Shown here: positions 15,563 through 32,667 of the stretch, one piece after another | Numbering within the stretch: position 1 is the stretch's first letter | Layout of the letters: each line of letters opens with the position of its first letter | IMG/VR virus record: IMGVR_UViG_3300011441_000117 | Location: 1-37,626 of that record | From: a virus | Taxonomy: Duplodnaviria > Caudoviricetes | DNA: 37,626 nucleotides | Strand: one strand, 5' to 3' | The notes under the pieces: model-generated | The model's input: the letters and a program-made list of their open reading frames with translations, nothing else | The model's database searches: none | What the model was told of the DNA's origin: nothing | Position numbers and translations under genes: made by a program

Positions 15563-18500
15563 ATGGCAAAGACCAAATACCTGGAATATGGGATCTACCT
15601 GACCGACCGCGTCGCCGTGACGGCGTTGCAGGTGACGTATCCCAATGGCATCCGGGTCGCGCCCGCGACGGCCGCGGTGACGTATGCCGCCCCGCTCCAA
15701 GAATTCCTGACACCGTTCTCGGCCCCGTGCGTGCGCTCGCCGTGGTTCTGGTCTGGAGTGGACGAGAATTACCCGCGCGATCAGGACAGCTTTACGCGGA
15801 AGATCGGCGGCTGGTTCGGCCTGCCGTTCCTGTTCGGCACCAACACCCTGCATATCTGGGTCGGGCTGTTCGAGCTGGCGCCGGAGAGCACCGGGTCTAT
15901 TGACGGCGTGCCGACCGAAGTGGTCGCGATTGCGACGCGGCGCTGGGTGGACGGCTTCGAGCTGCCGCAATTCGGGGAAGGGGGGTCGGGCACCGCGAAG
16001 CAGGCCGTCTCGAAAGACGCCTCACGGCATCCGGACGGGTTTGGGTTTGCGTTCCGGGGCGATACCGGCGCCATTACGCACGCGAGCGCGGAGTTCGGCG
16101 CCATTAGCACCGTCTCGCATTGGGATCGATTCTATGTCCGCATCAGGAAGGCGCCCACGGCGGCGGCGCGGTTGTGGATCGCACTGGGCGGCAACCAGGG
16201 CGTTGAACTGCAACTGACGGTCGGGCTGGCGCTCGCGATTTCGAATGTCGTCTCGGGGGCGTCGGTGCTCCTCACCACGACGAGTGTGGCGCTGGTGCTC
16301 AATGAGTGGACGCGCGTCGACATCGTCTTGAGTTACGCGACTGGCGCGGGCGGCGCGGGCGCCTACGTCAAGGTCTATTTCAACGGCGTGAGTGTGGGGG
16401 TCGTGTCCGCGTTCCCCGCGTTGGGGCTCGGCACGGTCGGCGGGCATGTGGACTCACGGCTCGGGAGCGCGGCGGCGGCCGATTACGAGGCCGACTTTGA
16501 TGACTGGATCGGATCGGCGGAACCGAACAAAGAGACGGCGGCGCCGTTCCGCTACGTCGGGGTGGACTGGCTGAACGGGTCCAAGGTGCAGCGGTTGCGC
16601 GCAACCGCGTTCGGCGCCGGTCACGATGCGGTCAACTGGACGAATCAGAATTACTCGCTCCTGAACCAGCTCGCCGAAGCGCCCTCGAATGGGATGGTGA
16701 GCACGACGGCGGCGGCGGCGATCGTGGTCGAGACGGACGCCGCGGCGAAGATTGACGCCCAGGCCAACGCGCTCGGCATCGTCGCGCTGGTCGTCGGGGT
16801 GTATCACAACGCGGTCGGGCTCGGCCAAGCGTCGGTCGGGTTCATGCTACCCGGCGAGCCGCTGGATCTGCTCGTGCAGGCGTCCGATAGCGGGGCGGAT
16901 TGGGATCACCATCTGTATCACCCTGGCGGCGAGACCGTGGCGCTGACACCCGTGGCCCCGCTGACGTTGCACTACTTGAAAGACAACGATGCCACGAGCG
17001 ACACGGTGTATCAACTGAACGCCTGCGCCGAAGTCCTGGGGATCTTCGGCGCGGAAGATGTCGCGCCCGGCGCCGTGGTGCCGTCGACGATTCCGCCGCG
17101 GTCCCTCGGGGCGCACAATAACCCCTACCCCGAGTCGCCGTGGGCGCGGCTGCTGACGGCGGCCGGGCCGTATGTGATTCACTCCGGCACCATCGTCGAG
17201 ACCGGTGCCGGGCAGGACATCTTCTTCCGGGTGCCGGTGCATTGGTTCTACTTCCGGCGCGTGCTCAGCACGACCGATGATCCGGTGCTGTGGATGGCGG
17301 CGAATCTCGGGGGACACACGACGTCCCTTGACGCGGCGCCGATCAACGTGCCAGTGCAGGCCCTGATCGATCCGGCCTTCGTGGGGGCGGGGGCGGAGGA
17401 CGATCAGGAGCAACGCACGATTGTGCGGATTGGCGCGGGTCTCGCGGCGGCCACGTATCAATACGTGGCGGTCTGCGACCCGGCGGGCCGGTTCCTGTTG
17501 ACCGGCGGGCTGGCGCACGGCGGGGCCGATGCGCCCAATACCGACGCGCTCCCGAATGCCGACTTTGCGCCCGAGGCGGGCTTTTTCCAGTGGGAGGATT
17601 ACGCGGGCGGGGGCGGGGTGCCAGCCGGGTATTACAAAGGCCCGGGCCATGCGGCGAATGCGACCTCCATCCTCACGGGCGCGGAGGTCGCTGAGTTCCT
17701 GTCGTGGAGTGCGGGGGCACTGGCGCCGCTCGATGCGTCGACCGTTGGCGCGCGCGTCACGGTGGGTTATGGCCTCTGGCGCCGGGACGATGGCAGCGGC
17801 GATGCCGGGATTCCCAAGGTTGTGCAGATCGGCAGCTACATCGGCGACGGCACGGCCTCCCGAACGGTGACGTTTGGGCCGACCCTCGTCCGTCCGCTCT
17901 GGGTGATGGTCGTGCCGCACAACGCCGCCGCGATCGTGCGTGACCCTGGACACCTGACGACCAAAAGTTGTCCGTGGAACGGGACGGAGAACACCGCGAC
18001 CGGCATCACCGCCGGCGGAATTGACAGCTTCAGCGTCGGGTCGGTCCTGAACGCCAACGGCATCGTCTACGACTGGTTCGTCTTACCCGGCGGCGTCACG
18101 GCCTGCAATGGCGGGTTCTCGTGCGATGGGGAATTTCTCCCGGTCGATCCGGAGACCCCCGAGGAACTCTGCGACGACCCCGAGGCCACAAACTTCGGCG
18201 AGCTGGGCGTGTGTGTGTTCGACGGGGAGGTACCGGAGACGACCTGCACCGATCCGCTGGCGACCAACTACGGCGGGCTGCTGCCCTGCGTGTATGACAC
18301 CGGCCCGCCCCCGCCCGGGGAGTGTGTCGACGGCGTCACGGAATCGACCTGTATCACCGAGACGACGAACCTCGTGAATCTCGCGCTGTTTGAAATCGGC
18401 GTCTCGGAGATGCTGACCAACTACTGCACGCAGCTCACCCGCGAGGCCGTGATCGCGCGGACGGTGTTCAATGCGACGGTGCGAACGGTGCTCCATGCCT

Positions 18501-19675
18501 ACCCGTGGCCGTTCGCGACAAAGTACGCCGTCCTCGTGTTGGCGACGAACCAGCCGACCCATGCCGATTGGACCTACGCCTATCGCGTGCCGGAGGACTG
18601 TGTCTTCCCGCGCCGGCTGGTCGTGTCGCGAGGGACCGCGAAAGATCCGGAGCCCCCGGCCTTCATGTTGTCGAGCGAAGCGGGTGGCGGGCTGTTGTTC
18701 ACCAATCAAGCGTCTGCGGTCCTCGAATACACCTGTCGGCCGACGTGTGTCGCGGTTCTTGGGGATGCGCTGTTTATCGAAACGCTGAAGTGGAAACTCG
18801 GTGCGGTGCTGGCGCCACCGTTGACCCGGATGGACGCACCCGCGGCGCGCTGCCAGGCCGAGTATGTGAAATGCCTCGAGCTGGCGAACGCGATCAAGAA
18901 GCCGGGCGTGCCGGGCGTGCGGACGGCGCTGCCGTTAGTTGGTGATGAGTCCGCGGCCTGCAGTGCGGCCAATGTGCAAGTCGTGAATCGCGGACTCTTG
19001 CGGATCGGCTGTCCCACGATCGCCAATCTCTCGACCGATCAAAGCCCGCCCGCCGTGCTGGCGAATCTGATCCTCGAAGACGAGATCCGCGCGACGCTCC
19101 GCGATTACCCGTGGAAGTTCGCCAAACGGTACAACGCGGCCTTGACGGTTGTCGCTGGCACGTCCACCGTGGCGGCCAATCCCGACTGGCAATACACCTA
19201 CCGGCTGCCGACCGATTACGTGATGGTCCGCCGGTTGGTCGCGGAGGGCACCGGCCGAAAGTTTGAAGACAGCCCGCCGCCGTGGGAAGTCGGCACCGAT
19301 GTCACGGGCGATCTGCTGATGACCGCCGTGGTCGATCCGAACCTCGAATACACGGCCCGCATTCCCTGCGTCGTGGAGAAGGGTGACGACCTCTTCCGCG
19401 ATGCGCTGGCCTGGCGCATTGCCGCCGCCTTGGCGCCGTCGCTGGCGCAAGTCGATCCGGCGCAGCCGGAACAGGTCGGCCGCGGGCCGGATGCCCCGCC
19501 GGACCCACGACAGCGCATCAGCCACAAGCCGAACCAGGCGCAGATGCGCGCGCAGGCGACGCAGTTCGCGCACGCGATGTATCGCACCGTGCTCCGGCGC
19601 GCGCAGATTCAGGACGCCAACGAGGCCGAACCGGAAGATCCGCCCGACGCCGAATGGATTCGCGCTCGGGGGTAA
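15563..19675 (+). CDS. Giant tail adaptor (tail tubular protein A-like): ~900-aa beta-rich appendage, Cys-rich linker repeats, two tandem adaptor domains
   Basis: Two copies of the N.AL..IG...L..YPW.FA...DW.Y.YR.P.D...RRL...LEYT.R...D.LF...L.W..A..LAP motif set (~18362-18900 and ~18971-19675). Lies immediately before the nozzle gene. Confidence 0.85.
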   Translation: MAKTKYLEYGIYLTDRVAVTALQVTYPNGIRVAPATAAVTYAAPLQEFLTPFSAPCVRSPWFWSGVDENYPRDQDSFTRKIGGWFGLPFLFGTNTLHIWVGLFELAPESTGSIDGVPTEVVAIATRRWVDGFELPQFGEGGSGTAKQAVSKDASRHPDGFGFAFRGDTGAITHASAEFGAISTVSHWDRFYVRIRKAPTAAARLWIALGGNQGVELQLTVGLALAISNVVSGASVLLTTTSVALVLNEWTRVDIVLSYATGAGGAGAYVKVYFNGVSVGVVSAFPALGLGTVGGHVDSRLGSAAAADYEADFDDWIGSAEPNKETAAPFRYVGVDWLNGSKVQRLRATAFGAGHDAVNWTNQNYSLLNQLAEAPSNGMVSTTAAAAIVVETDAAAKIDAQANALGIVALVVGVYHNAVGLGQASVGFMLPGEPLDLLVQASDSGADWDHHLYHPGGETVALTPVAPLTLHYLKDNDATSDTVYQLNACAEVLGIFGAEDVAPGAVVPSTIPPRSLGAHNNPYPESPWARLLTAAGPYVIHSGTIVETGAGQDIFFRVPVHWFYFRRVLSTTDDPVLWMAANLGGHTTSLDAAPINVPVQALIDPAFVGAGAEDDQEQRTIVRIGAGLAAATYQYVAVCDPAGRFLLTGGLAHGGADAPNTDALPNADFAPEAGFFQWEDYAGGGGVPAGYYKGPGHAANATSILTGAEVAEFLSWSAGALAPLDASTVGARVTVGYGLWRRDDGSGDAGIPKVVQIGSYIGDGTASRTVTFGPTLVRPLWVMVVPHNAAAIVRDPGHLTTKSCPWNGTENTATGITAGGIDSFSVGSVLNANGIVYDWFVLPGGVTACNGGFSCDGEFLPVDPETPEELCDDPEATNFGELGVCVFDGEVPETTCTDPLATNYGGLLPCVYDTGPPPPGECVDGVTESTCITETTNLVNLALFEIGVSEMLTNYCTQLTREAVIARTVFNATVRTVLHAYPWPFATKYAVLVLATNQPTHADWTYAYRVPEDCVFPRRLVVSRGTAKDPEPPAFMLSSEAGGGLLFTNQASAVLEYTCRPTCVAVLGDALFIETLKWKLGAVLAPPLTRMDAPAARCQAEYVKCLELANAIKKPGVPGVRTALPLVGDESAACSAANVQVVNRGLLRIGCPTIANLSTDQSPPAVLANLILEDEIRATLRDYPWKFAKRYNAALTVVAGTSTVAANPDWQYTYRLPTDYVMVRRLVAEGTGRKFEDSPPPWEVGTDVTGDLLMTAVVDPNLEYTARIPCVVEKGDDLFRDALAWRIAAALAPSLAQVDPAQPEQVGRGPDAPPDPRQRISHKPNQAQMRAQATQFAHAMYRTVLRRAQIQDANEAEPEDPPDAEWIRARG

Positions 19676-19678
19676 GCC

Positions 19679-21871
19679 ATGCCCGAGAGCGTCATTCAGC
19701 GATCGATGTCGGCCGGCGAGCTTGCCCCGGTCCTGCACGCGCGGGCCGATCACGAAAAATACACATCAGGGTTGAAGACGTGCCGCAACTTCATGGTGCT
19801 CCGACATGGCGCGGTCGCCAATCGTCCCGGTTTCCGCTTTGTTGCCGAGTGCAAGACGACAAGCGCGAACGTGCGACTCCTGCGTTACGTCTCCGAGAAC
19901 CCGAACGAGAGCATCCTGATCGAAGCGGGCGTCAACTACTTCCGGTTCTACTTGAACGGCGCGCTGGTGAGTCTCGCGGGCGCGGCCACGGCCTGGAGCG
20001 GCGCGACGGCGTATGTCGAAGGCGATCTGGTCTCACGGCTCGGCGTCAATTACTACTGTGTTCTGGCCCACACGAATCAGCAACCGCCAAACGCGACCTA
20101 TTGGCATCCGCTGACCGGGTTGATCTACGAGATCCCCTCGCCCTATACGACCGGCGGATTGTTCAATTGGGTGCAGAGCGGCAACGTGATCACGCTCACG
20201 CACCGCTTACACGACCCGCGCGAATTGATTTACTTCGGGCTGACGAACTGGGTGCTCCGGCTGGCGACCACGGAGCCGGCCCAACCGGCGCCGCTGAACG
20301 TGGCGGCCACGGCCGGCGCCGCGGGCGCGCGCACCTACACCTACCTCGTGACGGCGGCGGCAGCGGAGACCTACGAGGAATCGCTCCCGAGCACGGCCTT
20401 TGTGCTGGCGTCCACCGCGGCGCCGACGCCGGATCTGCCGAACGTCGTGACTTGGGATGCGGTGATCGCGCCCGTGGACGAACCCGCTGAATGGTACGTC
20501 TACCTCGACCCCTACGGGAACGGGACGTTTGGATTCATCGGCACGGCGAGTGATGAGACCTTCAACGATGTCGGGTTCGTGCCGGATTTCGCGATTACGT
20601 CCCCGCTGCCGCGGACCCCGTTCGTGAGCGCGGAGACGCGCCCGCATGTCGCGACCTACTACCAGCAACGCCGGTTCTTCGCGGGCAGCACGGCAACGCC
20701 GGAGACGATTGAAGGGTCGCGGACGGGCTTCCCCAACAACTTCGGCATCAGTTCCCCGTTGCAGGATGACGACGCGCTCTCGTTCCGTATCTCGGGCGAT
20801 CAGCATCATCCGGTGCGGCACATGCTGGGGCTGAAGACGCTGCTCGTGTTGACCGACGGCGGCGGGTGGACGGTGGGCCAACCGAAGATCGCGCTCACGC
20901 CCTCAAACCTGCCGGCGGATCAGGAGACCTACGTCGGCGCGGCGCCGGATGTTCGGCCCGTCGTGATCGGGAACTCGGTCATTTACCTGCAGTCGCGCGG
21001 CAGCATCATCCGTGATCTGCGCTTCGAGATTGAGGTTGAAGGCTTGGCCGGGCGCGACCTCACGGTATTCGCCGCGCACCTGTTCGATGGGCATGAGATC
21101 GACCGGATGGACTACCAGCAAACGCCCCACTCGGTCGTGTGGGCCATTCGCGATGACGGCGTACTGCTCGGGCTCACCTACCTGCGTGAACAGGACATCT
21201 GGGGCTGGCACCGCCACGACACCGACGGGTTCTTCGAGCAAATCTGCGTCGTGCCGGAAGGGTCTGAAGATGCCGTCTACGTGATCGTGATGCGGACGAT
21301 CGGCGGGTCGAACAAGCGGTATATCGAACGGCTGGCGACCCGCGAGATTACGAGCTTCGATGTCGATAGCTTCTTCGTCGATAGCGGGCTGAGTTACAGC
21401 GGCGCTCCGGCGTCGAGCTTCGGCGGGCTCACCCATCTCGAAGGGGAAAGCGTCGTCGGGTTGGCGGACGGGGAGCCTGTCGGGCCGTTCACGGTCGCGG
21501 GCGGATCGGTGTCGCTGGGTGCCGCCGCAAGCAATGTGCATATCGGCCTGCCGATTCCCTCCGCGGACTTTGAAACGCTCAACCTCGATGTCGGGGGCAG
21601 CGCGATCCGGGACAAGAAGAAGCGCGTCGGTAGTCTCACCGTGATCGTCGACAAGTCGAGCCGCGTGTTTTTGGCGGGGCCGGATACGACGCATCTAACG
21701 CGCTACGAACTGAGTCAACTCTCAGGCGCGGCGGTGGACGAGCACACCGGCCATGTCGAGATGACGCTGAGTGCCACCTGGAATGAGCACGGCAGGGTAT
21801 TTATTCGGCAAGACAAACCTTTGCCCCTCACGGTGCTCGGCGTGCTTCCGAATCTAGTAATCGGCGGATAG
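19679..21871 (+). CDS. Tail tubular protein B / nozzle (T7 gp12, BPP-1 type)
   Basis: QRSMSAGELAP.L.AR.D..KY..GL..CRNF....G...RPG, YYQQRRFFAG, SRTG...NF, DLTVFAAHLF, GWHRHDTDG, FFVDSG, Q.KPLPLTVL. Confidence 0.92.
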   Translation: MPESVIQRSMSAGELAPVLHARADHEKYTSGLKTCRNFMVLRHGAVANRPGFRFVAECKTTSANVRLLRYVSENPNESILIEAGVNYFRFYLNGALVSLAGAATAWSGATAYVEGDLVSRLGVNYYCVLAHTNQQPPNATYWHPLTGLIYEIPSPYTTGGLFNWVQSGNVITLTHRLHDPRELIYFGLTNWVLRLATTEPAQPAPLNVAATAGAAGARTYTYLVTAAAAETYEESLPSTAFVLASTAAPTPDLPNVVTWDAVIAPVDEPAEWYVYLDPYGNGTFGFIGTASDETFNDVGFVPDFAITSPLPRTPFVSAETRPHVATYYQQRRFFAGSTATPETIEGSRTGFPNNFGISSPLQDDDALSFRISGDQHHPVRHMLGLKTLLVLTDGGGWTVGQPKIALTPSNLPADQETYVGAAPDVRPVVIGNSVIYLQSRGSIIRDLRFEIEVEGLAGRDLTVFAAHLFDGHEIDRMDYQQTPHSVVWAIRDDGVLLGLTYLREQDIWGWHRHDTDGFFEQICVVPEGSEDAVYVIVMRTIGGSNKRYIERLATREITSFDVDSFFVDSGLSYSGAPASSFGGLTHLEGESVVGLADGEPVGPFTVAGGSVSLGAAASNVHIGLPIPSADFETLNLDVGGSAIRDKKKRVGSLTVIVDKSSRVFLAGPDTTHLTRYELSQLSGAAVDEHTGHVEMTLSATWNEHGRVFIRQDKPLPLTVLGVLPNLVIGG

Positions 21872-21878
21872 GAGCGCA

Positions 21879-22382
21879 ATGAGCCGACCGCATCACATGA
21901 CGCCGGGCAGCATCAATCGCGGGACGTTGCGCGATCGGTTTTATGCGCGCGCCACTGTGCGGGACGGCTGTTGGGGCTGGCGTGGACACGTTGGCGTGAA
22001 GGGCTACACAACGATGCAAGTCGGAGGGCGTCCTCTTCGCGGACATCGTGTGTCATGGGAGGTTCATCACGGCCCCATTCCTGACGGGCTGAACGTGCTG
22101 CATCGGTGCGACAACCCGGCATGTGTGAACCCGGATCATCTGTTTCTCGGTACGCACGCCGACAACGTGCACGACATGGTCAACAAGGGCCGACTCGTGG
22201 TCTCGCGTGGCGAAGACTCAGGTGGCGCAAAACTCACCGCCGCTGACGTGTTAGCCATTCGTGCTCACAGTGGGCATCGGGGGCACGGCGTTGCCCTCGC
22301 GCGCCGGTATGGTGTCAGCCCTGCATTGATCTCGATGGTTCGATCGGGTCGGATTTGGACTCACGTACAGGGGGCGGCCTAA
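21879..22382 (+). CDS. HNH homing-type endonuclease with C-terminal HTH
   Basis: GCWGW.G....GY...HRVSWEVHHGPIPDGLNVLHRCDNPACVNPDHLFLGTHADNVHDM..KGR, then KLT..DV..IR...LARRYGVS...IS. Confidence 0.95.
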   Translation: MSRPHHMTPGSINRGTLRDRFYARATVRDGCWGWRGHVGVKGYTTMQVGGRPLRGHRVSWEVHHGPIPDGLNVLHRCDNPACVNPDHLFLGTHADNVHDMVNKGRLVVSRGEDSGGAKLTAADVLAIRAHSGHRGHGVALARRYGVSPALISMVRSGRIWTHVQGAA

Positions 22383-22940
22383 ATGGCGGCCTTCACCGCG
22401 ACCATGCTCGCGTTAGCGGTGGGAGGGGCGGCGCTGAACGCGGTCGGCTCGATCAAGGCGGGCAATGCCGCGAAGCGCGCCGGGCAGGCCCAGCAGGACG
22501 CAGCCAACGACGCCGGGGATCTCGCCGATTACAACGCGCAAGTGGCCGACCTCCAGGCCCAAGACGCGATCGCCCGCGGGGCCGATGAGGAGCACCGTTT
22601 CCGCACGCGCGTACGTGGGGCCATCGGAGCACAGCGGGCCGGGTTCGCGGCCAGCAATATCGACGTGGGCTACGGCTCGGCGGTGGATGTGCAGGCGGAT
22701 GCCGCGTATCTGGGCGAGCTCGACGCGCTGACCATCAAAACCAACGCCGCGCGTGAAGCGTGGGGGTACGAAGTGCAGGGCGAGGATCTGCGCCGTCGCG
22801 GCCAGATCGCCCGCAAGGAAGGCAAATACGCCCTCGAATCAGGCAAGGCGTATCAAACGGCGTCACGCTATCAGGCCGCGGGCTCGATCCTCGGGACCGG
22901 CGCCTCACTCCTTGAAGCGCGCTACGGGGGGAGGAAGTAA
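22383..22940 (+). CDS. Internal virion (ejection) protein, gp14-like
   Basis: Hydrophobic N-terminus, Ala/Gln coiled coil, G.QRA.FAASN.DV..GSA.DV..D motif. First of three ejection genes. Confidence 0.85.
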   Translation: MAAFTATMLALAVGGAALNAVGSIKAGNAAKRAGQAQQDAANDAGDLADYNAQVADLQAQDAIARGADEEHRFRTRVRGAIGAQRAGFAASNIDVGYGSAVDVQADAAYLGELDALTIKTNAAREAWGYEVQGEDLRRRGQIARKEGKYALESGKAYQTASRYQAAGSILGTGASLLEARYGGRK

Positions 22941-22943
22941 CCC

Positions 22944-24677
22944 ATGCCCGTGGTCCGCTCCCAGCGTGAAGTCAGCCAGGCGCCGATTCCCGGCGTGCGG
23001 AAGACGGCTGCGGAAACGGCGCTCTCCAGCGGGGCGGGACTGGCGCACGCGCAGGCGAACACGGCCGAGACGATCGCCAGCGTCGGCGGACTGGTCGCGC
23101 GGATCGGCGCGTCGAAGTATGCCCAGATCCAACAGGAGGAGCGCGACAAGGCCGATCAGATTGCGGCCCTCGCGATGGACAACGCCTTCGCCAAATGGGA
23201 AGCGTCGGCGCTCTACGATCCCCAGAATGGCGCGCTGACCAAGCAGGGCAAGGACGCGCTCCCGCTGCCGGAACAGACCGCCGAGGCGTTCACGAAAATC
23301 TCGGGCGAGATTGAAGCGACCGCGAGCACTGATCGCCAGCGCGCCCATTTCCAGACGATCAAGCTGCGGCGCCAGCAGGGGCTCGACCTCACGATCCGCC
23401 GGCACGTCTTCGGGGAGATGCAAGCCTACGGACGCGAAGAACTCGCGGGCACGCTGGAGAACGCCCGCAACGAAGCCGGCGCGGCGGCGCTCGACCCCGA
23501 ACAAAGCGCGGCCGCGATCGACCGTGGCGTGTCGGCGCTCAACGTGATGGCGCCGAAGCTCGGGCTCGGCCCGGAGGCACTCCAAAAGCAACGGCTCGCG
23601 TTTACGTCTGGCGCCCATAGCGACATCATCGAGCGGCTGCTCGCCAACAACAAGGATAGGGCGGCGCGGGTCTACTTCGAGGAACTCCCGAAGGGGCAAC
23701 TGACGAGCGACGCGCAGGCCCGCGTCGAGAAGGCGATCGAGGTCGGCTCGCTCCGGGGCGAGTCTCAGCGCCAGGCGGATGTCATTCTCGCCGCCGGCGG
23801 CACCTTGACCGAACAACGCGCCAAGGTGAAAGGCATCACCGATCCGGAACTGCGGGACGCGGTGCAGCAGCGCATCGAGCATGAAGCGGTCATCCGCGAT
23901 CGCGAGGAGCGCGAGGCCGAACAATCGACGATGCGGAGCGCCTACGACATCCTCGACAAAACGGCCAACGTGAACCGCATTCCGCCGGCGACGTGGTCGC
24001 AGTTCGACGGCGGCACCCGCTCCGCGATGCGCTCGTATGCCGAACACAAGGCCAAGGGCACGCCGGTGCAGACCGACCTGCCGACGTATTACGGACTTGT
24101 CCAGAAAGCGATGGACAGCCCGGAGGCGTTCGCGACGACGAACCTGTTGAAGTACCGCGCCCAGCTCGATGAAGTCGAGTTCAAGCAACTCGCGGGCCTG
24201 CAGCTGAACATCGTCAACGGCAACAAGAACGCGGCCGAGAAGGATCTCGGCGGGTTGCGGACCAACCTGCAAATCATCAACGACTCGCTCGTGCAATACG
24301 GCATCACGCCGGACGGGGCGAAGCAGACCAAGGAAGAAGCCGACGCCGTCGCGACCTTGCGGCGGATGCTCGACACGGCCGTCGAAGTCGAGAGCCAACG
24401 CACTGGCAAGAAACCCGACAACATCTTCATCCAGCGCGAGGCCGATCGGATCTTGTCGCAATCGGTGACGACGCCGGGCTCGTGGTGGAACATCTGGCCG
24501 GGCGGCAAGTCGGTCAGCGACGTCACAACGCGGTTAATCGATACCAAGGCCGCGGACATTCCGCCGACCGAGCGCCAGCAGGTCGAGGCCGCGCTCCGCG
24601 CCCGTCAGCAGCCGGTGAGTGATGCGACCGTGCTCGACCTCTGGCTCCGGACGAAGACGCGCACGGGGGGCCAGTAG
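22944..24677 (+). CDS. Internal virion (ejection) protein, gp15-like
   Basis: MP.V start, all-helical, LYDPQNGAL...GKDA motif. Second ejection-gene position. Confidence 0.8.
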   Translation: MPVVRSQREVSQAPIPGVRKTAAETALSSGAGLAHAQANTAETIASVGGLVARIGASKYAQIQQEERDKADQIAALAMDNAFAKWEASALYDPQNGALTKQGKDALPLPEQTAEAFTKISGEIEATASTDRQRAHFQTIKLRRQQGLDLTIRRHVFGEMQAYGREELAGTLENARNEAGAAALDPEQSAAAIDRGVSALNVMAPKLGLGPEALQKQRLAFTSGAHSDIIERLLANNKDRAARVYFEELPKGQLTSDAQARVEKAIEVGSLRGESQRQADVILAAGGTLTEQRAKVKGITDPELRDAVQQRIEHEAVIRDREEREAEQSTMRSAYDILDKTANVNRIPPATWSQFDGGTRSAMRSYAEHKAKGTPVQTDLPTYYGLVQKAMDSPEAFATTNLLKYRAQLDEVEFKQLAGLQLNIVNGNKNAAEKDLGGLRTNLQIINDSLVQYGITPDGAKQTKEEADAVATLRRMLDTAVEVESQRTGKKPDNIFIQREADRILSQSVTTPGSWWNIWPGGKSVSDVTTRLIDTKAADIPPTERQQVEAALRARQQPVSDATVLDLWLRTKTRTGGQ

Positions 24678-27600
24678 TGGCCGGCAACATCTACGACGAC
24701 GCGCTCGAGGAACTGGAGACCGAGCAGGCGCCGCCAGCCGCCAACCCGTTCGACGACACGCTCCGCTTGGACGAGACGGCCGGCAAGCAACGGCTCCGCG
24801 GCGCGATGGTGCAGGCGGCCGAGACAACGCCGGATCGTGCCGCCGATGTGCGCCGATTGTCTGCCCGTACCGGCGTCGCGCCAGAGGCCATCGAACGCGA
24901 CTACGACACGTTCAGCAAGCGCGGCACGGTGGATGCCGTGCCCTATCAACAGATTCAGGCGGAGACGCCGAAGCTCGCCGCATGGCTCGAGAAGCCAGAG
25001 AACGCCAAACTCGCGTCGGACGACATCGAACCGCTGCGGGTGCTGGCGAAGACGCTCGACGTCGGCACCAATGCCCTCCGGGCGCTCGCCGCGGGACCAC
25101 TGGCGCAGTTCACGGTCGGCGCGTGGGATACCGCGGCCACCGCAGCGGAATGGCTCGGCGCGGATTCGCTCGCCGGCTGGTTCACGAAGGCGTCAGTCTC
25201 TGCCGCGCGCGATGCCGAGTATGCCCGCGGCGCGCAAGCCAGAGCCGGGCCGAACGAACGAGCCTTCTACAGCGGGTTCGAGTCGGTCGGCGGCATGGCA
25301 CCGGGCGCGCTCTTGGGGGGGTTGTCGGGGAGCGCGAACGCGATGCTCACCGTCATGGGCATCCAGAGCGGCGGCACGGCCGCGCAGCAGGCGCGTAAAG
25401 GCGGGGCTGGGCTTGTCCAGGCGACCGGGTTCGGCGCGCTGCAGGGCACCGTCGAGGCGTTGACCGAGAAGATTCCGGCGGCGTGGTTCTTCGCGGATCT
25501 GGCGAAGGGCTCGCCGTTCTACAAGATCCTCCTCCATCAACTGGCGTCCGAACTGCCGGGCGAACAGGTCGCGACGCATGTGCAGGACTTCAACGAGTGG
25601 GCCATTCTGCACCCCGATCAATCGCCCAACGCCTACCTTGAGAGCCGGCCCGCCGCGTTCATGCAAACGCTGATCGCGTCGGTGACGATGGTCGGCACGA
25701 TGGCGACGGCCGGCAAGGTCGCGCAGAGTCTCGCGGGTGACGGCGGGCGGGCGAAGCGGGCCGAATTAGATCAGGAGTTTTTCAAGGAACTGGCTTCCGG
25801 CGTGAAGGGTTCGAAGACGTTCGAGCGGTCGCCCGAAGGTGTCCAGGCGCTCGTGGCCGACCTCACCAAAGACGGCCCGATCGCCAACGTCTACGCCCCC
25901 GTCGACACGTTTGAAACCTACTGGCAGGACAAGGAACTAGAGACCCCGCACGGCACGATCAAAGGTGCGGCGGCGATTGCCGGCGAGCTGACAGGGCGGG
26001 CAGATGCGCTGGAGGAGGCGCGTCGGTCGGGAGTAGACCTCGAGATTCCCACCGCGGTCTACGCCGTGCAGCTCGCCGGCACTCCGCATCACGCGTTCAT
26101 GGCAGAGGAGCTTCGGCTCGGCTCCCCCGATCGGATGAATGCGCGGGAACTGACGGCCTTCCGTGAGGCGGAAACGGCCAAGGCGGATGAACCGACCACC
26201 GAGGAACTGCCGGCACCCAACCCGATCCGGCAAGAGATCATCCGGAAGATCCAGGCGGCGGTGGCGGGCACCAAGATCAAACTCCCGCCCGGCGCGATCG
26301 AGGGCTACGCCGACGTGTTCGAAGCGTTGACGGCGACGTTCGAACGGGAGGGGCTGGACCCCGTTGAGACGTTGCAGCGGTATGGGTTGCTCGTCACCGG
26401 GCCGCAGGAGGGCCACCCAACCGCGCCACAGGCCGCAGGAGCCGCGATCGCCAGCCCTGCCCCGGTGGCCCAAGCGTCGCCCCCGGTGCCCCTGAAGGAG
26501 CGCATTGCGGCGCTGCGGGCTGAGCAGGACGCCATCCAGATCGCCAAGCTCAAAACGAACATGCGCGCGGTGACGCGGATGTCCGAGACGGACCCGTTTA
26601 CCGGCCTCGCGAACCTTCGGGCGCTCAACAAGGCCCTCCCGAAAGCCGAAGCGGACCCCGACACGCAGGTCATTGCGTTCGACGCGAACAATTTCGGTCA
26701 CGTCAACAAAACCGAGGGCGACCCGGCGGGCGATGCCGTGATCCTGCAGATCGCAGAGGCCATCCAGCAGGCCGCCAAGCAATTTGGCGTCGGGGAACGG
26801 GTGTTCCGCCGGCGTGAAGGCGGGGATGAGTTTGTCGTGCTGGCACCGAAGGCGCTCGGCGATCAGATCCAGCGGCGGGCGGCGACGATCTTTGGGCGCC
26901 GACCCGTCAAAACAATGGCCGGCGAGACGGTGTTCATCAGCCTGACCGGGACGTCCGGAAACACGTTCACCGAGGCGGACTCGATCCTCCAGGCCGCGAA
27001 GACGGCGGCGAAGGCGCTTGACACGAGCGGACTTAGTGGACAGACTGAGGGCGCTCCAGATGCCGCAGCCGAACCTCTCCCGAGTCGACGAGCTGATCAA
27101 GGCGGGTTGTCCCAAGGGCAGCGCGTTCCGGCAAGCGATCCGGGAACAAACCAGCAAGCCGGCGACAAGCACCTCGCCCGCGTCTTCGACGCCCTCCTCG
27201 CCAGCGCCCGCGCCCTCGACCCCGCAGTAGTCCAAGCCGCGCTCCAGGCGGAATTCGACTATCGGCTCGAGTTGTGGCTCGACCGTCAAACCCTCGAAGT
27301 CGAGAGCGGCCAGAATCAACATCTCATCCTCAAGGCGATCGCCCGACTTGGCGGCATTGCCATCAGCGCGGACACCGCTGGCGAACTCCGCGACCTGCAA
27401 GGGCGGTTCGGCACCGTCGTCGGCGTGCCCAGCGTGCGCGGCGTGTTCCGGACCAAGAACCTTGGCGGATCGGCCAACAAGAAACTCGCCGGGCACGGCA
27501 TCGACGTCATGCTGCAGATGCTGCAGGGCGATCCGCAATTCGCGTATTTGGCATCAATCGACCAACTCCGAGACGTCCTCGATGAAGTCTCCCGACATGG

Positions 27601-30600
27601 CGCGTCCACCGTCTCGAATACGGAACTGCCCGGCACCGAGGAGTTGCGCGACGTCGGCATTCGACAGGACCGCTCGTGGTGGACCGATGCCTGGCGGACC
27701 GTCACCGAGCCAAACGAGAACCCGGACGACCTCACGGCTGACGCCACCGGTGTCGCTGACTTTGACGTCTCGACGCTCGATCAAGTCGTCACGCTATTCC
27801 AGGACGCGCCCGAGGAACCAACTGCGGCCTACGTCGGTGAACAAGAGGACGGCGCGGGTGGGAGCGTGTCGCTCTACACCATCACCGGCGGGCCCCGGCA
27901 TCAGTCGACCGTCACCGAGGAGACGCTCACCGCGCTCGGCATCGCGACCCCGGCCAAGGAACTGGAGCCGGCGCTCCCTGGCATCGAAGGCTTCGGCGGC
28001 ACGGCGGCGGAACTAGGGGAAGTGCCGTTCCGATTGACCGCGCAGATCGTCCAGACGTCGAACGCGCGGAAGTTGCAGCGGACGCTCTTTCAGGAAGAGA
28101 CCCCGCCGGCCAAGAAGAAACTCGGGGGCATCACCGCGCGCAACAAGGGTGACTGGGAGCGCAATGCGTTCTTCGGCCCCGATCTCCAGTTCACGATCAA
28201 GCTGTTCGAGAACGCCGACGTGTCGACGTTCCTCCACGAGAGCGCGCATCTGTTCCTGAAGATCATGACGGACCTGGAAGCGCGCCCGGAGGCGACAGCG
28301 AGCCTGAAGAATGATCTGGCGATCATTCGCACACGCTACGGCCCCGACGGCGTGGAGCAGCACGAGAAGTTCGCGCGAGCGTTCGAGGCGTATCTGCTCG
28401 AAGGCAAAGCGCCGAGCCTCGCCCTCCGGACGGTGTTCGCCAACTTCCGCAAGTGGCTGGGCCGCGTGTATCGCACGTTGAACCGCTTGAACGCGGATCT
28501 GACCGATGACGTGCGCGACGTGTTCGATCGGATGCTCGCCAGCGATGCGGCGATTGCGGAAGCGCAAGCAGCCGTGACGGCGACGCCGATGTTCACGACG
28601 GCGGAATCGGCGCGCATGTCTCAAGAGGAATTCGCCGTCTACCAGGGCCAGATTGCCGACGCCGGGCGCCTCGCGCGCGAGGAACTCGAAGGCAAGTTGC
28701 TCCGCGATCTGCAGCGCCAGCAACGCGCGGACTACAAGGCCGAGAAGCAAGCCATCCGCGAAACGGTGGAGACCGAAGTCTACGCGATGCCGGTGTATCA
28801 AGCCTTGGCCGCCATGCGCAAGGGCACGCGCCCGGACGGCACGCCGCTGGTCGAAGGCGCCGAGAATGAACCGCTGAAGCTCTCGCGCGCGATCATTCGC
28901 GACCGCTACGGGAAGGAACGGCTGGCCGCGCTGCCCAGTTATCCGCCACCGATTCACACCGCCGATGGGGGCATGGACCCGGACACCGTCGCAGAGTTGT
29001 TCGGCTTCGCCAGCGGGGACGCGCTCCTGACGGCGGTGGCGGAAGCCTTGCCGATGCGCGGGTTGATCGAAGCCGAGACGACCAAACGCATGGACGCGCA
29101 GGCGGGCGATCTGATGGTCGAGACGACGCTGTCGGATCTCGCCAAGGCGGCCGTGGCGAATGAACATCGGGAAGCCATCGTCCGGATCGAGATGCAGACG
29201 CTCGGTCGGCTCCGACGGACGGCCCAAGCCGGCGCCGTCAAGGAACGTGACTACGAACGCCGCTGGTTCGAGGCGGAAGCGAAACTGCGGATCGCGATCG
29301 CCGAAGGGCGGAAGCAGAACGACATCACCGCGCTCGAAGCCGAAGTCGCAGACCTGAAAAAGCAAGCCCGCGGCGGCGCGGCCCGCATCAATGCGGCGCT
29401 CCCGAGTGAAGCGGATCTCCGCGACGTCGCCCGTGCGCGCATCGGACGGACCCGCATCAAGGATCTCAAGCCGATGCTGTTCTGGACGGCGGCACGGCGA
29501 GCCGGCGAGCAAGCGACCGCCCACGCGGCCCGGCAGGACTTCGACAAGGCGCTGGGCGCCAAGCAGCAGGAACTCGTCAGCCTGGCACTCTACCGCGAAG
29601 CGACGCGCGTGGTGGAGGACGTCGAGGCCCGTGTGAAGGCGGCGCAGAAGCTCGATCAGCCGTCCTCACGGCAGCGGATCGGCCTCGCCGGCGCGAGCTA
29701 CCAGGATCAGATCGACGCCATCCTCGACCGCTACGAGTTCGCGTCCATCTCCGGGAAGGCGCTCCGTAAGCGCCTCGCGATGCGCGCGTGGATCGTGGAA
29801 CTGGAAAAAGACGGCATGGCGCCCGACTTCCCCGAGGCCATGATCGACGACGCCCGGCAGGTGCATCACAAGGAGTTGACCGTTGACGAGTTGACCGACG
29901 TCAGCGACACGCTGAAATCGATCGTGCATCTGGCGCAGTTGAAAAACCGGCTGTTGGCGAACCTCGACGAACGGGAGTTTGCCGTCGAGCGCGACAAGCT
30001 CGTCACGTCGATTCGGGAGCACAACGAAGCCCGGCCGGTGCCGCTCGAATTCCGGCCGGCCGACGATCGCCGCCGGAGCTTCGGCGAATGGTTCGCCTCG
30101 CACGCGCGGATTGGCACCCTGGCGCAAGTCATGGACGGCCCTGGTGACGGCGGGGCCGCGTGGTCGGCGATCGTACGACCGATCAATACCGCGGCCGATG
30201 CCAAGCAGTCCCGCAACGCCGCGGAGGGGACGGCCTACGCCGCGATCATGGCGAAGCACTATCCCGGCCGCGAGCTCGGGCGCTGGCATGAGCAGATGCA
30301 CATTCCCGCCATCGGCGCCAGCTTGTCAAAGGAAGCCCGCCTCGCCGTCGCCCTGAATTCCGGCAACCAGACGAGCCGCGATCGGCTCGTGAACGACCCG
30401 CGCCGCAAGTGGAACCAGCAGCAGGTTGACGCCATCCTCGCGACGCTCGACGCGCGCGATTGGGCCTATGTCGTTGACACGTGGCGCTTCCTCGATCGGT
30501 TCTGGCCGGAGATTGCCGCGAAGACCAAGCGGCTGACCGGCGTCGAACCGGAGCGTGTCGAAGGCATCCCGGTCCTGACGAAGTTCGGCACGTTCCAGGG

Positions 30601-32047
30601 CGGCTATTACCCGCTCGCCTACGACGCGCGGATGAATATTCAATCGCAGCAGCACGAAGCGGTCACGGAGGCCAAGCTGCAAACCTCGGCGGCCTACGTC
30701 CGCACGACGACGCGCCGGGGACACCTCGAGGCCCGCGTCCAGAATGTGAAGCTCTCCGTCCGGCTCGACCTCGGGGTGATGTTCGCGCACTTGGAGCAGG
30801 TCATTCATGACCTGACGCACCACGAGATGCTAATCGACGTGACGCGGCTGCTGCGCGATCCGGCCGTGTCGAATGCGATCCTCGAAACCAAGGGCGACGT
30901 CGTTTACAAGCAGTTCACTAAGGCGCTTGAAGCGATCGCGGAAGGCAAACTTGATCCGGGCAAGAGTGGTGAGAATTGGGCCACGTTCGCGCGCACGAGC
31001 ACGCAGATCGCCTTGCTCGGGTTCAACTTCTGGACCGGCGTGCAGCAGCCGCTCGGGCTGTTCAATGGGATGGAGCGTGTCGGCGCGAAGTGGGTCGCGC
31101 GCGGGCTCGGGCGCTGGTTGAAAGATGCCGCCACGATGCAGAAGACGACGACGTGGATCGATAGCGTCAGTCCGTTCATGGCTGAGCGGGGTTCGACGGC
31201 GACGCAGGATCTCGCAGACTTGCGGGGCCAAATGCGGACCTCTGGCGGCTGGTTCGATACGCTGGTCAGAACCGTCACGCTCGATACCGTCACGCAGCAG
31301 CACGTCCTCGATTCCTTTCTCTGGCATATCGGGGTGATGCAGCGCGTCGCCGATGTGCCGACGTGGTTGGGTCAGTACGAAAAGTCGATGGCCGCTGGCG
31401 AACCAGAGGCGCGCGCGATCAGCCTGGCCGATCAAGCGGTGATCGATTCCCAAGGCTCTGGCCGGATCTCCGACCTCGCTCAAAAGCAACGAGGCGGCCC
31501 GATCGCCAAACTGTTCCTCATGTTCTACAGCTACGGCTCGGCGACCTACAACGCGACCTATCGCCGCGCCGGGCAAACCGACTTCAAAAGCCCGACGCAG
31601 GTCACGCGGTTTCTCGCGGCCATCTCACTGATCTACCTCGTCCCGTCAATGGCGAGTGTGGCTTTGAGTCGCGTGTTCGGTAAATCCGGCGACGATGATG
31701 ACGACGACGATTGGCAGGAATACATCGCGGACGTGGGCCGCGAAACGCTGGCGTCGGCCTTGAACGGCATGGTGGCGGTTCGCGAACTGTCCCAAATTGC
31801 GGCTGACGGGACGCGCGGGTATGCCGGGCCGGCTGGCACACGTGTGGCGCAGATGCTGCTTCAACTCGCCGGGCAGGCGAAACAGGGCGAACTTGACGAG
31901 GCGCTAGCGAAGGCGCTTTTGCAGGTTGGTGGGGTGTTCGCCCGTTTCCCGACCGCGCAGTTGCAACGCACCTATGACGGCTGGGCGGCCTTACAGGCGG
32001 ACGAGACGGACAACCCGGCGGCGCTGCTCGTTGGACCGCCGCGATGA
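24677..32047 (+). CDS. Large internal virion/ejection protein (gp16-like, polyvalent) with GGDEF and HExxH metallopeptidase-like domains
   Basis: 2456 aa, third ejection-gene position. GGDEF domain at ~26570-27020 (DPFTGLAN...FDANNF..VN...G...GD...GGDEF...ADSILQAAK). STFLHESAH...EQHEKFAR.FE.YL.EGKAP at ~28225-28415. C-terminal GGYYPL.YD, DSQGSG and LF.MFYSY motifs as in BPP-1-type large structural proteins. Confidence 0.88.
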   Translation: MAGNIYDDALEELETEQAPPAANPFDDTLRLDETAGKQRLRGAMVQAAETTPDRAADVRRLSARTGVAPEAIERDYDTFSKRGTVDAVPYQQIQAETPKLAAWLEKPENAKLASDDIEPLRVLAKTLDVGTNALRALAAGPLAQFTVGAWDTAATAAEWLGADSLAGWFTKASVSAARDAEYARGAQARAGPNERAFYSGFESVGGMAPGALLGGLSGSANAMLTVMGIQSGGTAAQQARKGGAGLVQATGFGALQGTVEALTEKIPAAWFFADLAKGSPFYKILLHQLASELPGEQVATHVQDFNEWAILHPDQSPNAYLESRPAAFMQTLIASVTMVGTMATAGKVAQSLAGDGGRAKRAELDQEFFKELASGVKGSKTFERSPEGVQALVADLTKDGPIANVYAPVDTFETYWQDKELETPHGTIKGAAAIAGELTGRADALEEARRSGVDLEIPTAVYAVQLAGTPHHAFMAEELRLGSPDRMNARELTAFREAETAKADEPTTEELPAPNPIRQEIIRKIQAAVAGTKIKLPPGAIEGYADVFEALTATFEREGLDPVETLQRYGLLVTGPQEGHPTAPQAAGAAIASPAPVAQASPPVPLKERIAALRAEQDAIQIAKLKTNMRAVTRMSETDPFTGLANLRALNKALPKAEADPDTQVIAFDANNFGHVNKTEGDPAGDAVILQIAEAIQQAAKQFGVGERVFRRREGGDEFVVLAPKALGDQIQRRAATIFGRRPVKTMAGETVFISLTGTSGNTFTEADSILQAAKTAAKALDTSGLSGQTEGAPDAAAEPLPSRRADQGGLSQGQRVPASDPGTNQQAGDKHLARVFDALLASARALDPAVVQAALQAEFDYRLELWLDRQTLEVESGQNQHLILKAIARLGGIAISADTAGELRDLQGRFGTVVGVPSVRGVFRTKNLGGSANKKLAGHGIDVMLQMLQGDPQFAYLASIDQLRDVLDEVSRHGASTVSNTELPGTEELRDVGIRQDRSWWTDAWRTVTEPNENPDDLTADATGVADFDVSTLDQVVTLFQDAPEEPTAAYVGEQEDGAGGSVSLYTITGGPRHQSTVTEETLTALGIATPAKELEPALPGIEGFGGTAAELGEVPFRLTAQIVQTSNARKLQRTLFQEETPPAKKKLGGITARNKGDWERNAFFGPDLQFTIKLFENADVSTFLHESAHLFLKIMTDLEARPEATASLKNDLAIIRTRYGPDGVEQHEKFARAFEAYLLEGKAPSLALRTVFANFRKWLGRVYRTLNRLNADLTDDVRDVFDRMLASDAAIAEAQAAVTATPMFTTAESARMSQEEFAVYQGQIADAGRLAREELEGKLLRDLQRQQRADYKAEKQAIRETVETEVYAMPVYQALAAMRKGTRPDGTPLVEGAENEPLKLSRAIIRDRYGKERLAALPSYPPPIHTADGGMDPDTVAELFGFASGDALLTAVAEALPMRGLIEAETTKRMDAQAGDLMVETTLSDLAKAAVANEHREAIVRIEMQTLGRLRRTAQAGAVKERDYERRWFEAEAKLRIAIAEGRKQNDITALEAEVADLKKQARGGAARINAALPSEADLRDVARARIGRTRIKDLKPMLFWTAARRAGEQATAHAARQDFDKALGAKQQELVSLALYREATRVVEDVEARVKAAQKLDQPSSRQRIGLAGASYQDQIDAILDRYEFASISGKALRKRLAMRAWIVELEKDGMAPDFPEAMIDDARQVHHKELTVDELTDVSDTLKSIVHLAQLKNRLLANLDEREFAVERDKLVTSIREHNEARPVPLEFRPADDRRRSFGEWFASHARIGTLAQVMDGPGDGGAAWSAIVRPINTAADAKQSRNAAEGTAYAAIMAKHYPGRELGRWHEQMHIPAIGASLSKEARLAVALNSGNQTSRDRLVNDPRRKWNQQQVDAILATLDARDWAYVVDTWRFLDRFWPEIAAKTKRLTGVEPERVEGIPVLTKFGTFQGGYYPLAYDARMNIQSQQHEAVTEAKLQTSAAYVRTTTRRGHLEARVQNVKLSVRLDLGVMFAHLEQVIHDLTHHEMLIDVTRLLRDPAVSNAILETKGDVVYKQFTKALEAIAEGKLDPGKSGENWATFARTSTQIALLGFNFWTGVQQPLGLFNGMERVGAKWVARGLGRWLKDAATMQKTTTWIDSVSPFMAERGSTATQDLADLRGQMRTSGGWFDTLVRTVTLDTVTQQHVLDSFLWHIGVMQRVADVPTWLGQYEKSMAAGEPEARAISLADQAVIDSQGSGRISDLAQKQRGGPIAKLFLMFYSYGSATYNATYRRAGQTDFKSPTQVTRFLAAISLIYLVPSMASVALSRVFGKSGDDDDDDDWQEYIADVGRETLASALNGMVAVRELSQIAADGTRGYAGPAGTRVAQMLLQLAGQAKQGELDEALAKALLQVGGVFARFPTAQLQRTYDGWAALQADETDNPAALLVGPPR

Positions 32048-32667
32048 TGAAACGCGGCCAGCACGTCATGGCCCCGGCGATCGGCAGCGTGGCGATGAAG
32101 CGCGGCCGAACCGGGAAGGTCACGGCCGAGTCGCCGCTCCGGCAGCAGGACGGCACGGCGGCGACGGGCTTGGGCGCCGCTGGGGCGACTGGACCGGCGG
32201 GGCCAGCGGGACCGACCGGGCCCACAGGGCCAACCGGGCCAGCCGGGGCCGATGGGGCCGATGGGGCCGCTGGGGCGACCGGCGCGACGGGCGCAGCGGG
32301 GGCGACCGGCCCGCCCGGCGTGACGCATCGGTCGTTCGGCGGCAGTCTGACTGAGTGGGTGCAGGACGCCACGCCGACCTGGACGCCCGCCAACGGGCGA
32401 CAGGTCAGCATCGACGGCGGGGCGGGCGGCGGGGCACTCACGTTGACGGTGCGTATCCGGGCGGCGAGCGGCACGGTGACGGCGCGACTACGGGACGTCA
32501 CCAACAACGTGACAGCCGGCACGAGTGGGGCGGTGGCGGCGCCGAACTACGGCACCGAAGTGATCGCGGTGACGCTCTCGGCGGGCGTGGCGGTCTACGA
32601 GGTGCAGCTCCTGCCGAGCGTCGCCGACGAGGACGTCAACCTCGGCTCGGCGTACATGGTGGGGTAA
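32044..32667 (+). CDS. Collagen-like (Gly-X-Y) fibre/whisker protein
   Basis: 16 consecutive G-X-Y triplets (~32173-32320) followed by a beta-rich C-terminal domain. Confidence 0.85.
   Translation: MMKRGQHVMAPAIGSVAMKRGRTGKVTAESPLRQQDGTAATGLGAAGATGPAGPAGPTGPTGPTGPAGADGADGAAGATGATGAAGATGPPGVTHRSFGGSLTEWVQDATPTWTPANGRQVSIDGGAGGGALTLTVRIRAASGTVTARLRDVTNNVTAGTSGAVAAPNYGTEVIAVTLSAGVAVYEVQLLPSVADEDVNLGSAYMVG

What the first reader, a model, noticed from the sequence alone, without database searches (positions are those of the whole stretch)
26480..27020. GGDEF (diguanylate-cyclase-like) domain embedded in the giant ejection protein: a candidate virion-delivered c-di-GMP synthase
Seen: within the 2456-aa ORF there is a helical lead-in (LKERIAALRAEQ...MRAVTRMSE), the wide-turn DPFTGLAN (26591), FDANNFGHVNKTEGDPAGDAVI, an exact GGDEF (26819-26833, aa 715-719) and a terminal ADSILQAAK. 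The domain is flanked by Pro/Ala-rich linkers, as an inserted module would be. Established: the first Asp, the guanine-binding Asn and Asp, and the GGDEF are canonical DGC residues. The inhibitory RxxD I-site upstream of GGDEF is absent here (GERVFRRREGGDEF). DGCs need dimerisation, and gp16-like proteins are oligomeric and ejected into the cell with the DNA. The canonical DxDxFK lysine is replaced by Gly and GH by GD, so activity may differ. Inference: the virion may inject a pre-oligomerised, feedback-free cyclase that raises c-di-GMP (or a related nucleotide) before any phage transcription. This could reprogramme motility, pili, exopolysaccharide or receptor display (superinfection exclusion), or interfere with nucleotide-based immunity. 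I cannot confirm novelty without a search.
Basis: partly seen in the sequence, partly recalled or inferred. Interest (0 to 1): 0.93.

Follow-up and report, generated by a model that had tools for sequence, protein, structure and literature searches.

The report
Remodelled cyclase in phage injection protein
An uncultured short-tailed phage carries a shortened, remodelled copy of the bacterial enzyme domain for the signal molecule c-di-GMP inside a giant protein that is likely injected with its DNA, where it is predicted to make the signal without feedback control; such fusions were catalogued by computer in 2017 and I found no bench test of them.

Summary
The GGDEF domain is real (Pfam 49.9 bits, cut-off 23.8; confident model, best fold matches are diguanylate cyclases). 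It lies in a variable cargo segment of a 2456-aa orthologue of BPP-1 Bbp10 (a T7 gp16-type internal virion protein) with LPD22 and an HExxH motif: a phage 'polyvalent protein', in which Iyer et al. 2017 already reported GGDEF domains. This scan found the same theme on other genomes at least eight times. Added here: the domain belongs to a distinct shortened GGDEF group (223 clusters at E≤1e-30) found in giant proteins and as stand-alone 160–250-aa phage genes. All 166 domains examined lack the RxxD site. The 'lost' catalytic lysine appears moved one helix turn: Gly674 comes with Lys678 in 123 of 123, though independent origins are not shown. Only 9 of 120 orthologous giant proteins carry the module, scattered over the tree. 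Metal, guanine and phosphate residues are kept, so a constitutive, injected c-di-GMP synthase is most likely (0.4). This copy lacks the cross-dimer arginine, so another product or a non-catalytic role stays open. Host, activity and packaging are untested. New variant of a known kind; interest 0.5.

The parts
26495..26590 (+). Helical stalk leading into the wide turn (aa 607-638); likely dimerising helix; Arg634 kept in 155 of 165 group members
   Evidence: register compared with DgcR
26591..27013 (+). Shortened GGDEF domain (aa 639-779): D639 wide turn, D669/D717/E718 metal site, N677/D686 guanine site, K775/K779 phosphate site; G674+K678 swap; L647, D682, Q772 at cross-dimer positions; no RxxD; 2-aa RE insert before GGDEF; final strand apparently absent
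24677..32047 (+). 2456-aa giant internal virion (IVP-D / T7 gp16-type) polyvalent protein, orthologue of BPP-1 Bbp10 and Carin-1 gp32; conserved N-part to about aa 580, variable cargo segment about aa 600-1135, conserved C-part from about aa 1135-1170
   Evidence: (phrog_9880)
24797..25072 (+). LPD22 domain (aa 41-132)
   Evidence: 58.9 bits
28235..28249 (+). HESAH (HExxH) zincin-like metallopeptidase motif, aa 1187-1191; a matching motif in 117 of 120 orthologues and in Bbp10
   Evidence: MPTase role from PMC5512222
22944..24677 (+). 577-aa gp15-position internal virion protein (Bbp11 / Carin-1 gp33 homologue)
22383..22940 (+). T7 gp14-family internal virion protein (Bbp12 homologue)
19679..21871 (+). 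Tail nozzle (tubular tail B, Bbp13 homologue)

Best explanation
The phage's giant gp16-type protein carries a shortened GGDEF module with no RxxD brake that is likely packaged and injected with the DNA, likely pairs through its own short helix, and is predicted to make c-di-GMP from GTP in the first minutes of infection. Shown: fold, motifs, position in the ejection-protein gene block, orthology to Bbp10, mobility of the module, purifying selection in one pair of relatives. Inferred: packaging and cytoplasmic delivery (by homology to IVP-D proteins); catalysis with Lys678 taking over the phosphate-stabilising role of the canonical lysine (DgcR K179) from one helix turn away; possible release of the module by the HExxH peptidase; and the purpose, most plausibly pushing the host into a high-c-di-GMP state (less motility or pilus display, fewer rival infections) before phage genes are expressed. 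Rough estimate: four copies per virion (T7 gp16 stoichiometry) give two dimers; at 0.1-1 per second (0.1 per second is the lower bound reported for activated DgcR) they would make about 120-1200 molecules in 10 minutes, about 0.2-2 micromolar in a 1-femtolitre cell, within the range I recall for cellular c-di-GMP.
For: GGDEF fold. Residues that bind metal, guanine and phosphates in DgcR are kept here and in the group: D669 164/165, N677 165/165, D686 158/165, D717 and E718 165/165, K775 160/165, K/R779 150/165. The Asp at the base-reading position gives GTP specificity in GacA mutants (PMC6456294). Lys or Arg at 674 or 678 in 165 of 166 domains; G674 always with K678, 123 of 123; both lie in helix 54-61 of the model, i and i+4. 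RxxD in 0 of 165 versus 32 of 48 cellular-type domains. dN/dS 0.04 between two relatives at pS 0.30 (L004/L005). Stand-alone genes of 161-250 aa with only a short N-terminal helix exist, and two proteins carry tandem copies (P0003, P0042). This copy's stalk has small or hydrophobic residues at the DgcR active-register positions (-3 S, -7 V, -10 M, -14 L, -17 I) and polar ones at -11 and -18. Host protein is 33% identical to Bbp10 over aa 1172-2453, which PMC4819975 lists as IVP-D, a family that hosts cytoplasm-bound domains such as N4 RNA polymerase. Other phages raise c-di-GMP through YfiN-binding peptides (PMC8085984).
Against: No member of the group has a measured activity that I could find. 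This copy has Leu647 where 112 of 165 relatives and 94% of predicted diguanylate cyclases have the cross-dimer Arg; three other proposed cross-dimer residues of DgcR (D183, H187, Y286) are changed, and the last strand appears to be missing. The G674/K678 link rests on only 2 independent pairs on well-supported branches (sign test p 0.5), so it may be few events. The group consensus has Arg, not a hydrophobic residue, at stalk position -10. GdpS shows that intact motifs need not mean working cyclase function (PMC10333796). Packaging of this protein is inferred; for the relative in phage Xacm4-11 the proteomics table was an image I could not read. Host unknown. In hosts whose STING-type defence senses c-di-GMP (recalled, no call), raising it would harm the phage.
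Confidence: 0.4

Rival explanations
1. The module is an active nucleotidyltransferase whose remodelled dimer interface gives another product (linear pppGpG, 3',3'-cGAMP or a mixture) that jams or decoys nucleotide-based immunity.
For: Four cross-dimer positions differ from canonical enzymes (L647, K678, D682, Q772). The Arg147-equivalent tunes product ratio in GacA, and non-Arg residues go with cGAMP there. The changes are held across a large group under selection.
Against: The base-reading Asp686 is kept (158 of 165), and Asp at that position makes GacA a pure c-di-GMP enzyme. The model matches GGDEF far better than Panoptes OptS (Z 14.6 versus 9.2, rmsd 2.5, 101 aligned).
Confidence: 0.15
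2. The module is catalytically dead and works by binding GTP or c-di-GMP, or by pairing with host cyclases as a dominant-negative partner that lowers c-di-GMP.
For: The canonical lysine is Gly; the second Asp of DxD is Asn; cross-dimer contacts are changed; the last strand appears lost.
Against: Both metal-binding acidic positions and the fourth-position Glu, required for catalysis in GacA, are kept in 164-165 of 165; a Lys or Arg is kept at 674 or 678 in 165 of 166.
Confidence: 0.17
3. The enzyme is active but acts late in infection, when the structural gene is expressed, or is cut off by the HExxH peptidase before packaging; injection is incidental.
For: The same module works as stand-alone genes among non-structural genes in 4 of 12 group loci from viral contigs (L010-L013). 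P1 DdrB is processed before packaging (PMC5512222). Late expression gives far more copies than about four per virion.
Against: The module recurs at the same cargo position of the IVP-D protein where relatives carry ART, PBECR nuclease or GNAT domains, and 92 of 165 group domains sit in proteins of 800 aa or more. N4 virion RNA polymerase is packaged unprocessed.
Confidence: 0.16
4. The group is functional, but this particular copy is a decaying passenger.
For: End branch 0.43 versus 0.09-0.22 for its nearest neighbours; private changes L647, M629, N628, A778. The module is often absent in close relatives.
Against: It breaks 8 of 61 conserved columns, against a median of 6 (range 0-20) among 122 like domains; all core catalytic positions are intact; pairwise dN/dS to seven relatives is 0.22-0.40, though near saturation.
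Confidence: 0.12

Closest known systems
GGDEF domains in phage and prophage polyvalent proteins (Iyer et al. 2017, PMC5512222; passages read, figures and FTP files not seen)
   Same: Giant virion-cassette protein with LPD22 and an HExxH MPTase motif, carrying a GGDEF domain as swappable cargo; same proposed role (injected, interferes with host nucleotide signalling).
   Different: The passages I read give no residue-level analysis and no subfamily; the named example (Acetonema WP_004096050.1) has another architecture. The shortened G674/K678 group and its stand-alone forms are not in those passages; the unseen supplements could include members.
Canonical diguanylate cyclases (DgcR, PleD, WspR, PadC; Pfam PF00990)
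   Same: Fold, DxLT-type wide turn, stalk helix, metal, guanine and phosphate residues, exact GGDEF.
   Different: No sensor domain, no RxxD; K179->G, D183->K, H187->D, Y286->Q, R147->L (DgcR numbering); GGDEF-to-terminal-Lys median 56 residues versus 72; final strand apparently missing.
Internal virion protein D family, epsilon15 group: BPP-1 Bbp10, Carin-1 gp32, Xacm4-11 gp35 (PMC4819975; bioRxiv 10.64898/2026.02.16.706137)
   Same: Homologous N- and C-terminal parts, HExxH motif, synteny nozzle-gp14-gp15-gp16.
   Different: Bbp10 and Carin-1 gp32 have no GGDEF hit.
Stand-alone GGDEF genes of YuA-like phages (Yuavirus, Vojvodinavirus; PMC8471281, PMC10333796)
   Same: Short phage-encoded GGDEF-only proteins without a sensor.
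   Different: Outside this group (CN2 protein scores 47 bits against 100 or more for members), keep the canonical Lys...Asn-Asp...Gly-His, not virion-fused; activity not shown in the passages read.
Hypr GGDEF (GacA) and Panoptes OptS (mCpol)
   Same: Show that GGDEF-like folds can make other cyclic dinucleotides; GacA also lacks the cross-dimer Arg.
   Different: This domain keeps the base-reading Asp (GacA has Ser) and matches GGDEF, not mCpol, by profile; OptS is a weaker fold match.

Membership tests
GGDEF domain (PF00990) | Profile score above curated cut-off | tested here: met
   49.9 bits vs 23.8
GGDEF domain (PF00990) | GGDEF palm fold with wide turn and signature hairpin | tested here: met
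Active canonical diguanylate cyclase | Metal-binding Asp and GG[DE]EF acids | tested here: met
   D669, D717, E718
Active canonical diguanylate cyclase | Guanine-reading Asn and Asp (DgcR N182, D191) | tested here: met
   N677, D686
Active canonical diguanylate cyclase | Gamma-phosphate Lys/Arg (DgcR K289, R293) | tested here: met
   K775, K779; model end aligns with DgcR 293 and PleD 446
Active canonical diguanylate cyclase | Lys over the alpha-phosphate (DgcR K179) at its canonical position | tested here: not met
   Gly674; a Lys sits at 678, i+4 on the same helix; substitution of function is inferred
Active canonical diguanylate cyclase | Cross-dimer residues (DgcR R147, D183, H187, D282, Y286) | tested here: not met
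   Only D768 kept; L647, K678, D682, Q772
Active canonical diguanylate cyclase | c-di-GMP synthesis by a dimer | not testable with these tools
   needs enzyme assay
Phage polyvalent protein (Iyer 2017) | Large protein joining unrelated domains, including LPD and MPTase | tested here: met
   LPD22, GGDEF, HExxH motif; the MPTase call rests on the motif, no Pfam hit
Phage polyvalent protein (Iyer 2017) | Encoded among virion genes of a portal-terminase phage | tested here: met
Phage polyvalent protein (Iyer 2017) | Packaged and injected | not testable with these tools
   inferred from orthology to Bbp10/IVP-D
IVP-D (T7 gp16-type), epsilon15 group | Homology to a listed IVP-D member and synteny after gp14/gp15-like genes | tested here: met
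   33% to Bbp10 over about 1280 aa, E 0; Table 2 of PMC4819975
Hypr GGDEF (cGAMP synthase) | Ser/Thr at the base-reading position | tested here: not met
   Asp686
mCpol / Panoptes OptS | mCpol profile or best fold match | tested here: inconclusive
   No mCpol Pfam row at E<=0.01; OptS listed at Z 9.2, well below GGDEF rows

The most novel reading that the evidence does not exclude
Phages have evolved their own minimal, always-on GGDEF family with a rebuilt active site (catalytic lysine moved one helix turn, new dimer interface), shuttle it between early genes and the cargo bay of the injected gp16-type protein, and use it to flood the cell with c-di-GMP or a non-canonical guanine dinucleotide before any phage transcription, to silence nucleotide-based defence or block rival phages.
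Probability: 0.25. Interest if true: 0.8.

Novelty: new variant of a known kind. Interest (0 to 1): 0.5.

Why it matters
If active, this is a second messenger made by an enzyme that arrives in the virion, a timing so far only predicted for GGDEF domains in the papers I could search. The group's natural stand-alone members of about 165-190 aa make the 2017 prediction cheap to test, and the G674/K678 pair is a natural experiment on the role of the conserved lysine in GGDEF catalysis. The concept itself is in print and recurs in this scan, which limits surprise.

Tried and rejected
Homodimer prediction with GTP and Mg gave no answer (score 0.00); not used as evidence. No cultured phage matched the window's domain by blastn or tblastn; a stand-alone member found only YuA-like and cellular-type domains at 38% or less among the 40 of 78 records listed. 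So 'phage-specific' is supported by the 12 viral loci and the giant-protein contexts, not shown for all 223 clusters. Independent-pairs test of the G674/K678 link was underpowered. Neighbours of stand-alone genes (13 proteins from L010-L013) showed no c-di-GMP receptor or phosphodiesterase family. Mis-assembly rejected. Hypr type rejected on Asp686. Ten literature searches found no experimental test of a phage-encoded or virion-borne GGDEF domain; the library lacks most subscription papers. Look-ups of earlier scan notes by sequence, by genome and by clade words were empty.

Full report
Observation. Pfam GGDEF covers aa 637-781 at 49.9 bits against a cut-off of 23.8. A model of aa 620-779 built on a 23-row alignment has mean pLDDT 91; Foldseek and VIA-align rank diguanylate cyclase domains first (Z 14.6, rmsd 4.4, 150 aligned for GCN4-WspR), and the model's last residue aligns with DgcR R293 and PleD R446. 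A separate contig record, L123, is identical over 16,480 of 16,480 bases.

The carrier. The window is a virus record, 82% complete, with terminase, portal, capsid, adaptor and nozzle genes followed by a gp14-family gene, a 577-aa gene and the giant ORF. The giant protein is 33% identical to BPP-1 Bbp10 over aa 1172-2453 and 30% over aa 22-412, and its three upstream neighbours match Bbp11, Bbp12 and Bbp13. Hardies et al. list Bbp10 as the IVP-D (T7 gp16) homologue of the epsilon15 group and note that IVP-D proteins host cytoplasm-bound domains (PMC4819975, passages and Table 2). The Xacm4-11 preprint names the syntenic gp35 as a core-protein candidate; its proteomics table is an image that I could not read (passages). 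The protein has LPD22 and an HExxH motif found in 117 of 120 orthologues, the marks of a polyvalent protein. Packaging and injection are therefore inferred, not shown.

An exchangeable cargo. Of 1056 orthologues found with aa 1560-2050, the best 120 were listed. They align to aa 1-580 and from about 1135-1170 onwards, but few align between. Nine of 120, including the window's own, carry the GGDEF domain; others carry ART, PBECR nuclease or GNAT domains. On a FastTree of the core, presence needs 8 changes, at least 6 forced by well-supported branches, against a shuffled mean of 8.8: repeated gain or loss. A few orthologues are fragments, so some absences may be truncations.

A distinct GGDEF group. 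A search with aa 600-790 gave 32 large proteins at 41-59% identity and 7 cellular signalling proteins at 28-34%. The profile found 223 clusters at E<=1e-30, of which the best 150 were listed. Pooling these with earlier hits gave 166 distinct domains at 100 bits or more; apart from the window's, 92 lie in proteins of 800 aa or more, 67 in proteins under 350 aa (a few may be fragments) and 6 between. They form one side of a 99% branch against 24 of the 48 weaker, cellular-type domains that I put in the tree; the set was chosen by a profile trained on this group, which biases it. Of 38 viral loci, 12 belong to the group: 8 in proteins of 844-4434 aa and 4 as stand-alone genes among replication and small genes. 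YuA-like phage GGDEF genes lie outside it. The host is unknown.

Residues. Using DgcR as reference (bioRxiv 10.1101/2020.08.28.271692, passages and section 8; profile offset of 500), the metal (D669, D717, E718), guanine (N677, D686) and phosphate (K775, K779) residues are kept in the window and in 150-165 of 165 relatives. RxxD is absent in 165 of 165 but present in 32 of 48 cellular-type domains. The domain is shorter (median 56 versus 72 residues from GGDEF to the terminal Lys) and stand-alone members end a median of about 11 residues after it, so the last strand appears lost. The lysine that DgcR places over the alpha-phosphate is Gly674; every one of 123 domains with that Gly has Lys at 678, where canonical enzymes have Asp, and 165 of 166 keep Lys or Arg at one of the two places. 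Both lie on helix alpha-1, four residues apart. I infer a moved catalytic lysine. Against over-reading: with the two columns removed from the tree only 2 independent pairs stand on supported branches (p 0.5). Cross-dimer positions are rebuilt: Y286 is Gln in most members, and this copy also has Leu for R147, which 112 of 165 keep and which affects product choice in GacA (PMC6456294, passages). The base-reading Asp argues for GTP. One close pair of relatives gives dN/dS 0.04; the window's own comparisons give 0.22-0.40 near saturation. It breaks 8 of 61 conserved columns, median 6, so it is somewhat divergent but not evidently decayed.

Dimerisation. Stand-alone members have at least 30 residues before the wide turn and a conserved helix with Arg at -5, so the module likely brings its own stalk; the gp16 oligomer would add local concentration. 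The window's stalk fits the DgcR active register, but the group consensus has Arg at -10. This is inference.

Mechanism and odds. Most likely (0.40): an injected, constitutive c-di-GMP synthase acting before phage transcription, to the phage's benefit through motility, pilus or receptor changes; other phages raise c-di-GMP via YfiN (PMC8085984 abstract start and passages; PMC11461919 passages). Rivals: non-catalytic binder or dominant-negative partner (0.17), late-acting or pre-cleaved enzyme (0.16), other product (0.15), decaying copy (0.12). The downstream purpose is the least supported step.

What is known. Iyer et al. 2017 state that GGDEF domains occur, 'not very widespread', in polyvalent proteins and may interfere with host nucleotide responses (PMC5512222, passages; Fig. 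1C and FTP files not seen and may hold members of this group). Short GGDEF-only genes are noted for YuA-like phages (PMC10333796, PMC8471281, passages). Panoptes OptS shows a related fold making another dinucleotide (PMC11974786, passages). PMC7824862 added nothing (passages). Ten searches found no experimental test and no description of the G674/K678 group. Eight earlier notes of this scan report the same theme on other genomes; they are not independent support.

Verdict. Real, a member of the GGDEF family and of the polyvalent proteins; not filed as a canonical diguanylate cyclase because two defining residue sets are not met, though it likely works like one. New variant of a known kind; interest 0.5.

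Noticed in passing
window 15563-19675 (+): The tail adaptor gene is 1370 aa: two phrog_394 tail-protein stretches at the C-terminus (best aa 933-1111) behind a roughly 900-aa N-terminal part with a weak laminin-G-like hit below cut-off. Long ORFs sit at the same place in L001, L003, L006 and L009.
   Followed up: no
window 22944-24677 (+): The gp15-position protein is 577 aa against 720 for Bbp11 and has no Pfam hit, so it may lack the lytic transglycosylase that Bbp11 is annotated with.
   Followed up: partly
window 21879-22382 (+): A 167-aa ORF that reads like an HNH endonuclease (by eye, not scanned) lies between the nozzle and gp14-like genes; L003 and L009 have no ORF there.
   Followed up: no
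P0003 aa 808-959 and 1018-1169; P0042: Two giant proteins carry tandem GGDEF copies; in P0003 the copies are sisters on the tree, which could form a dimer within one chain.
   Followed up: partly
L010:4911-5648, L011:9851-10441, L012:9872-10432, L013:1158-1685: Stand-alone genes of the same GGDEF group (175-245 aa) in phages of 40-61% GC, among helicase, Thy1, methylase or ParB genes; the easiest members to assay.
   Followed up: partly
window ORF 24677-32047, aa about 830-1135 (27164-28081): A second cargo segment without Pfam hit, shared with about a quarter of the 119 orthologues; function not examined.
   Followed up: no
window 9844-10278 (+): GNAT acetyltransferase (phrog_1249) just upstream of the portal block.
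   Followed up: no
window 1-100, 12711-12900 and 32044-32300: Low-complexity repeats: GSAV-type repeats at the window start, ADKA-type repeats in the probable scaffold protein, and collagen-like Gly-X-Y repeats in the gene after the giant ORF.
   Followed up: no
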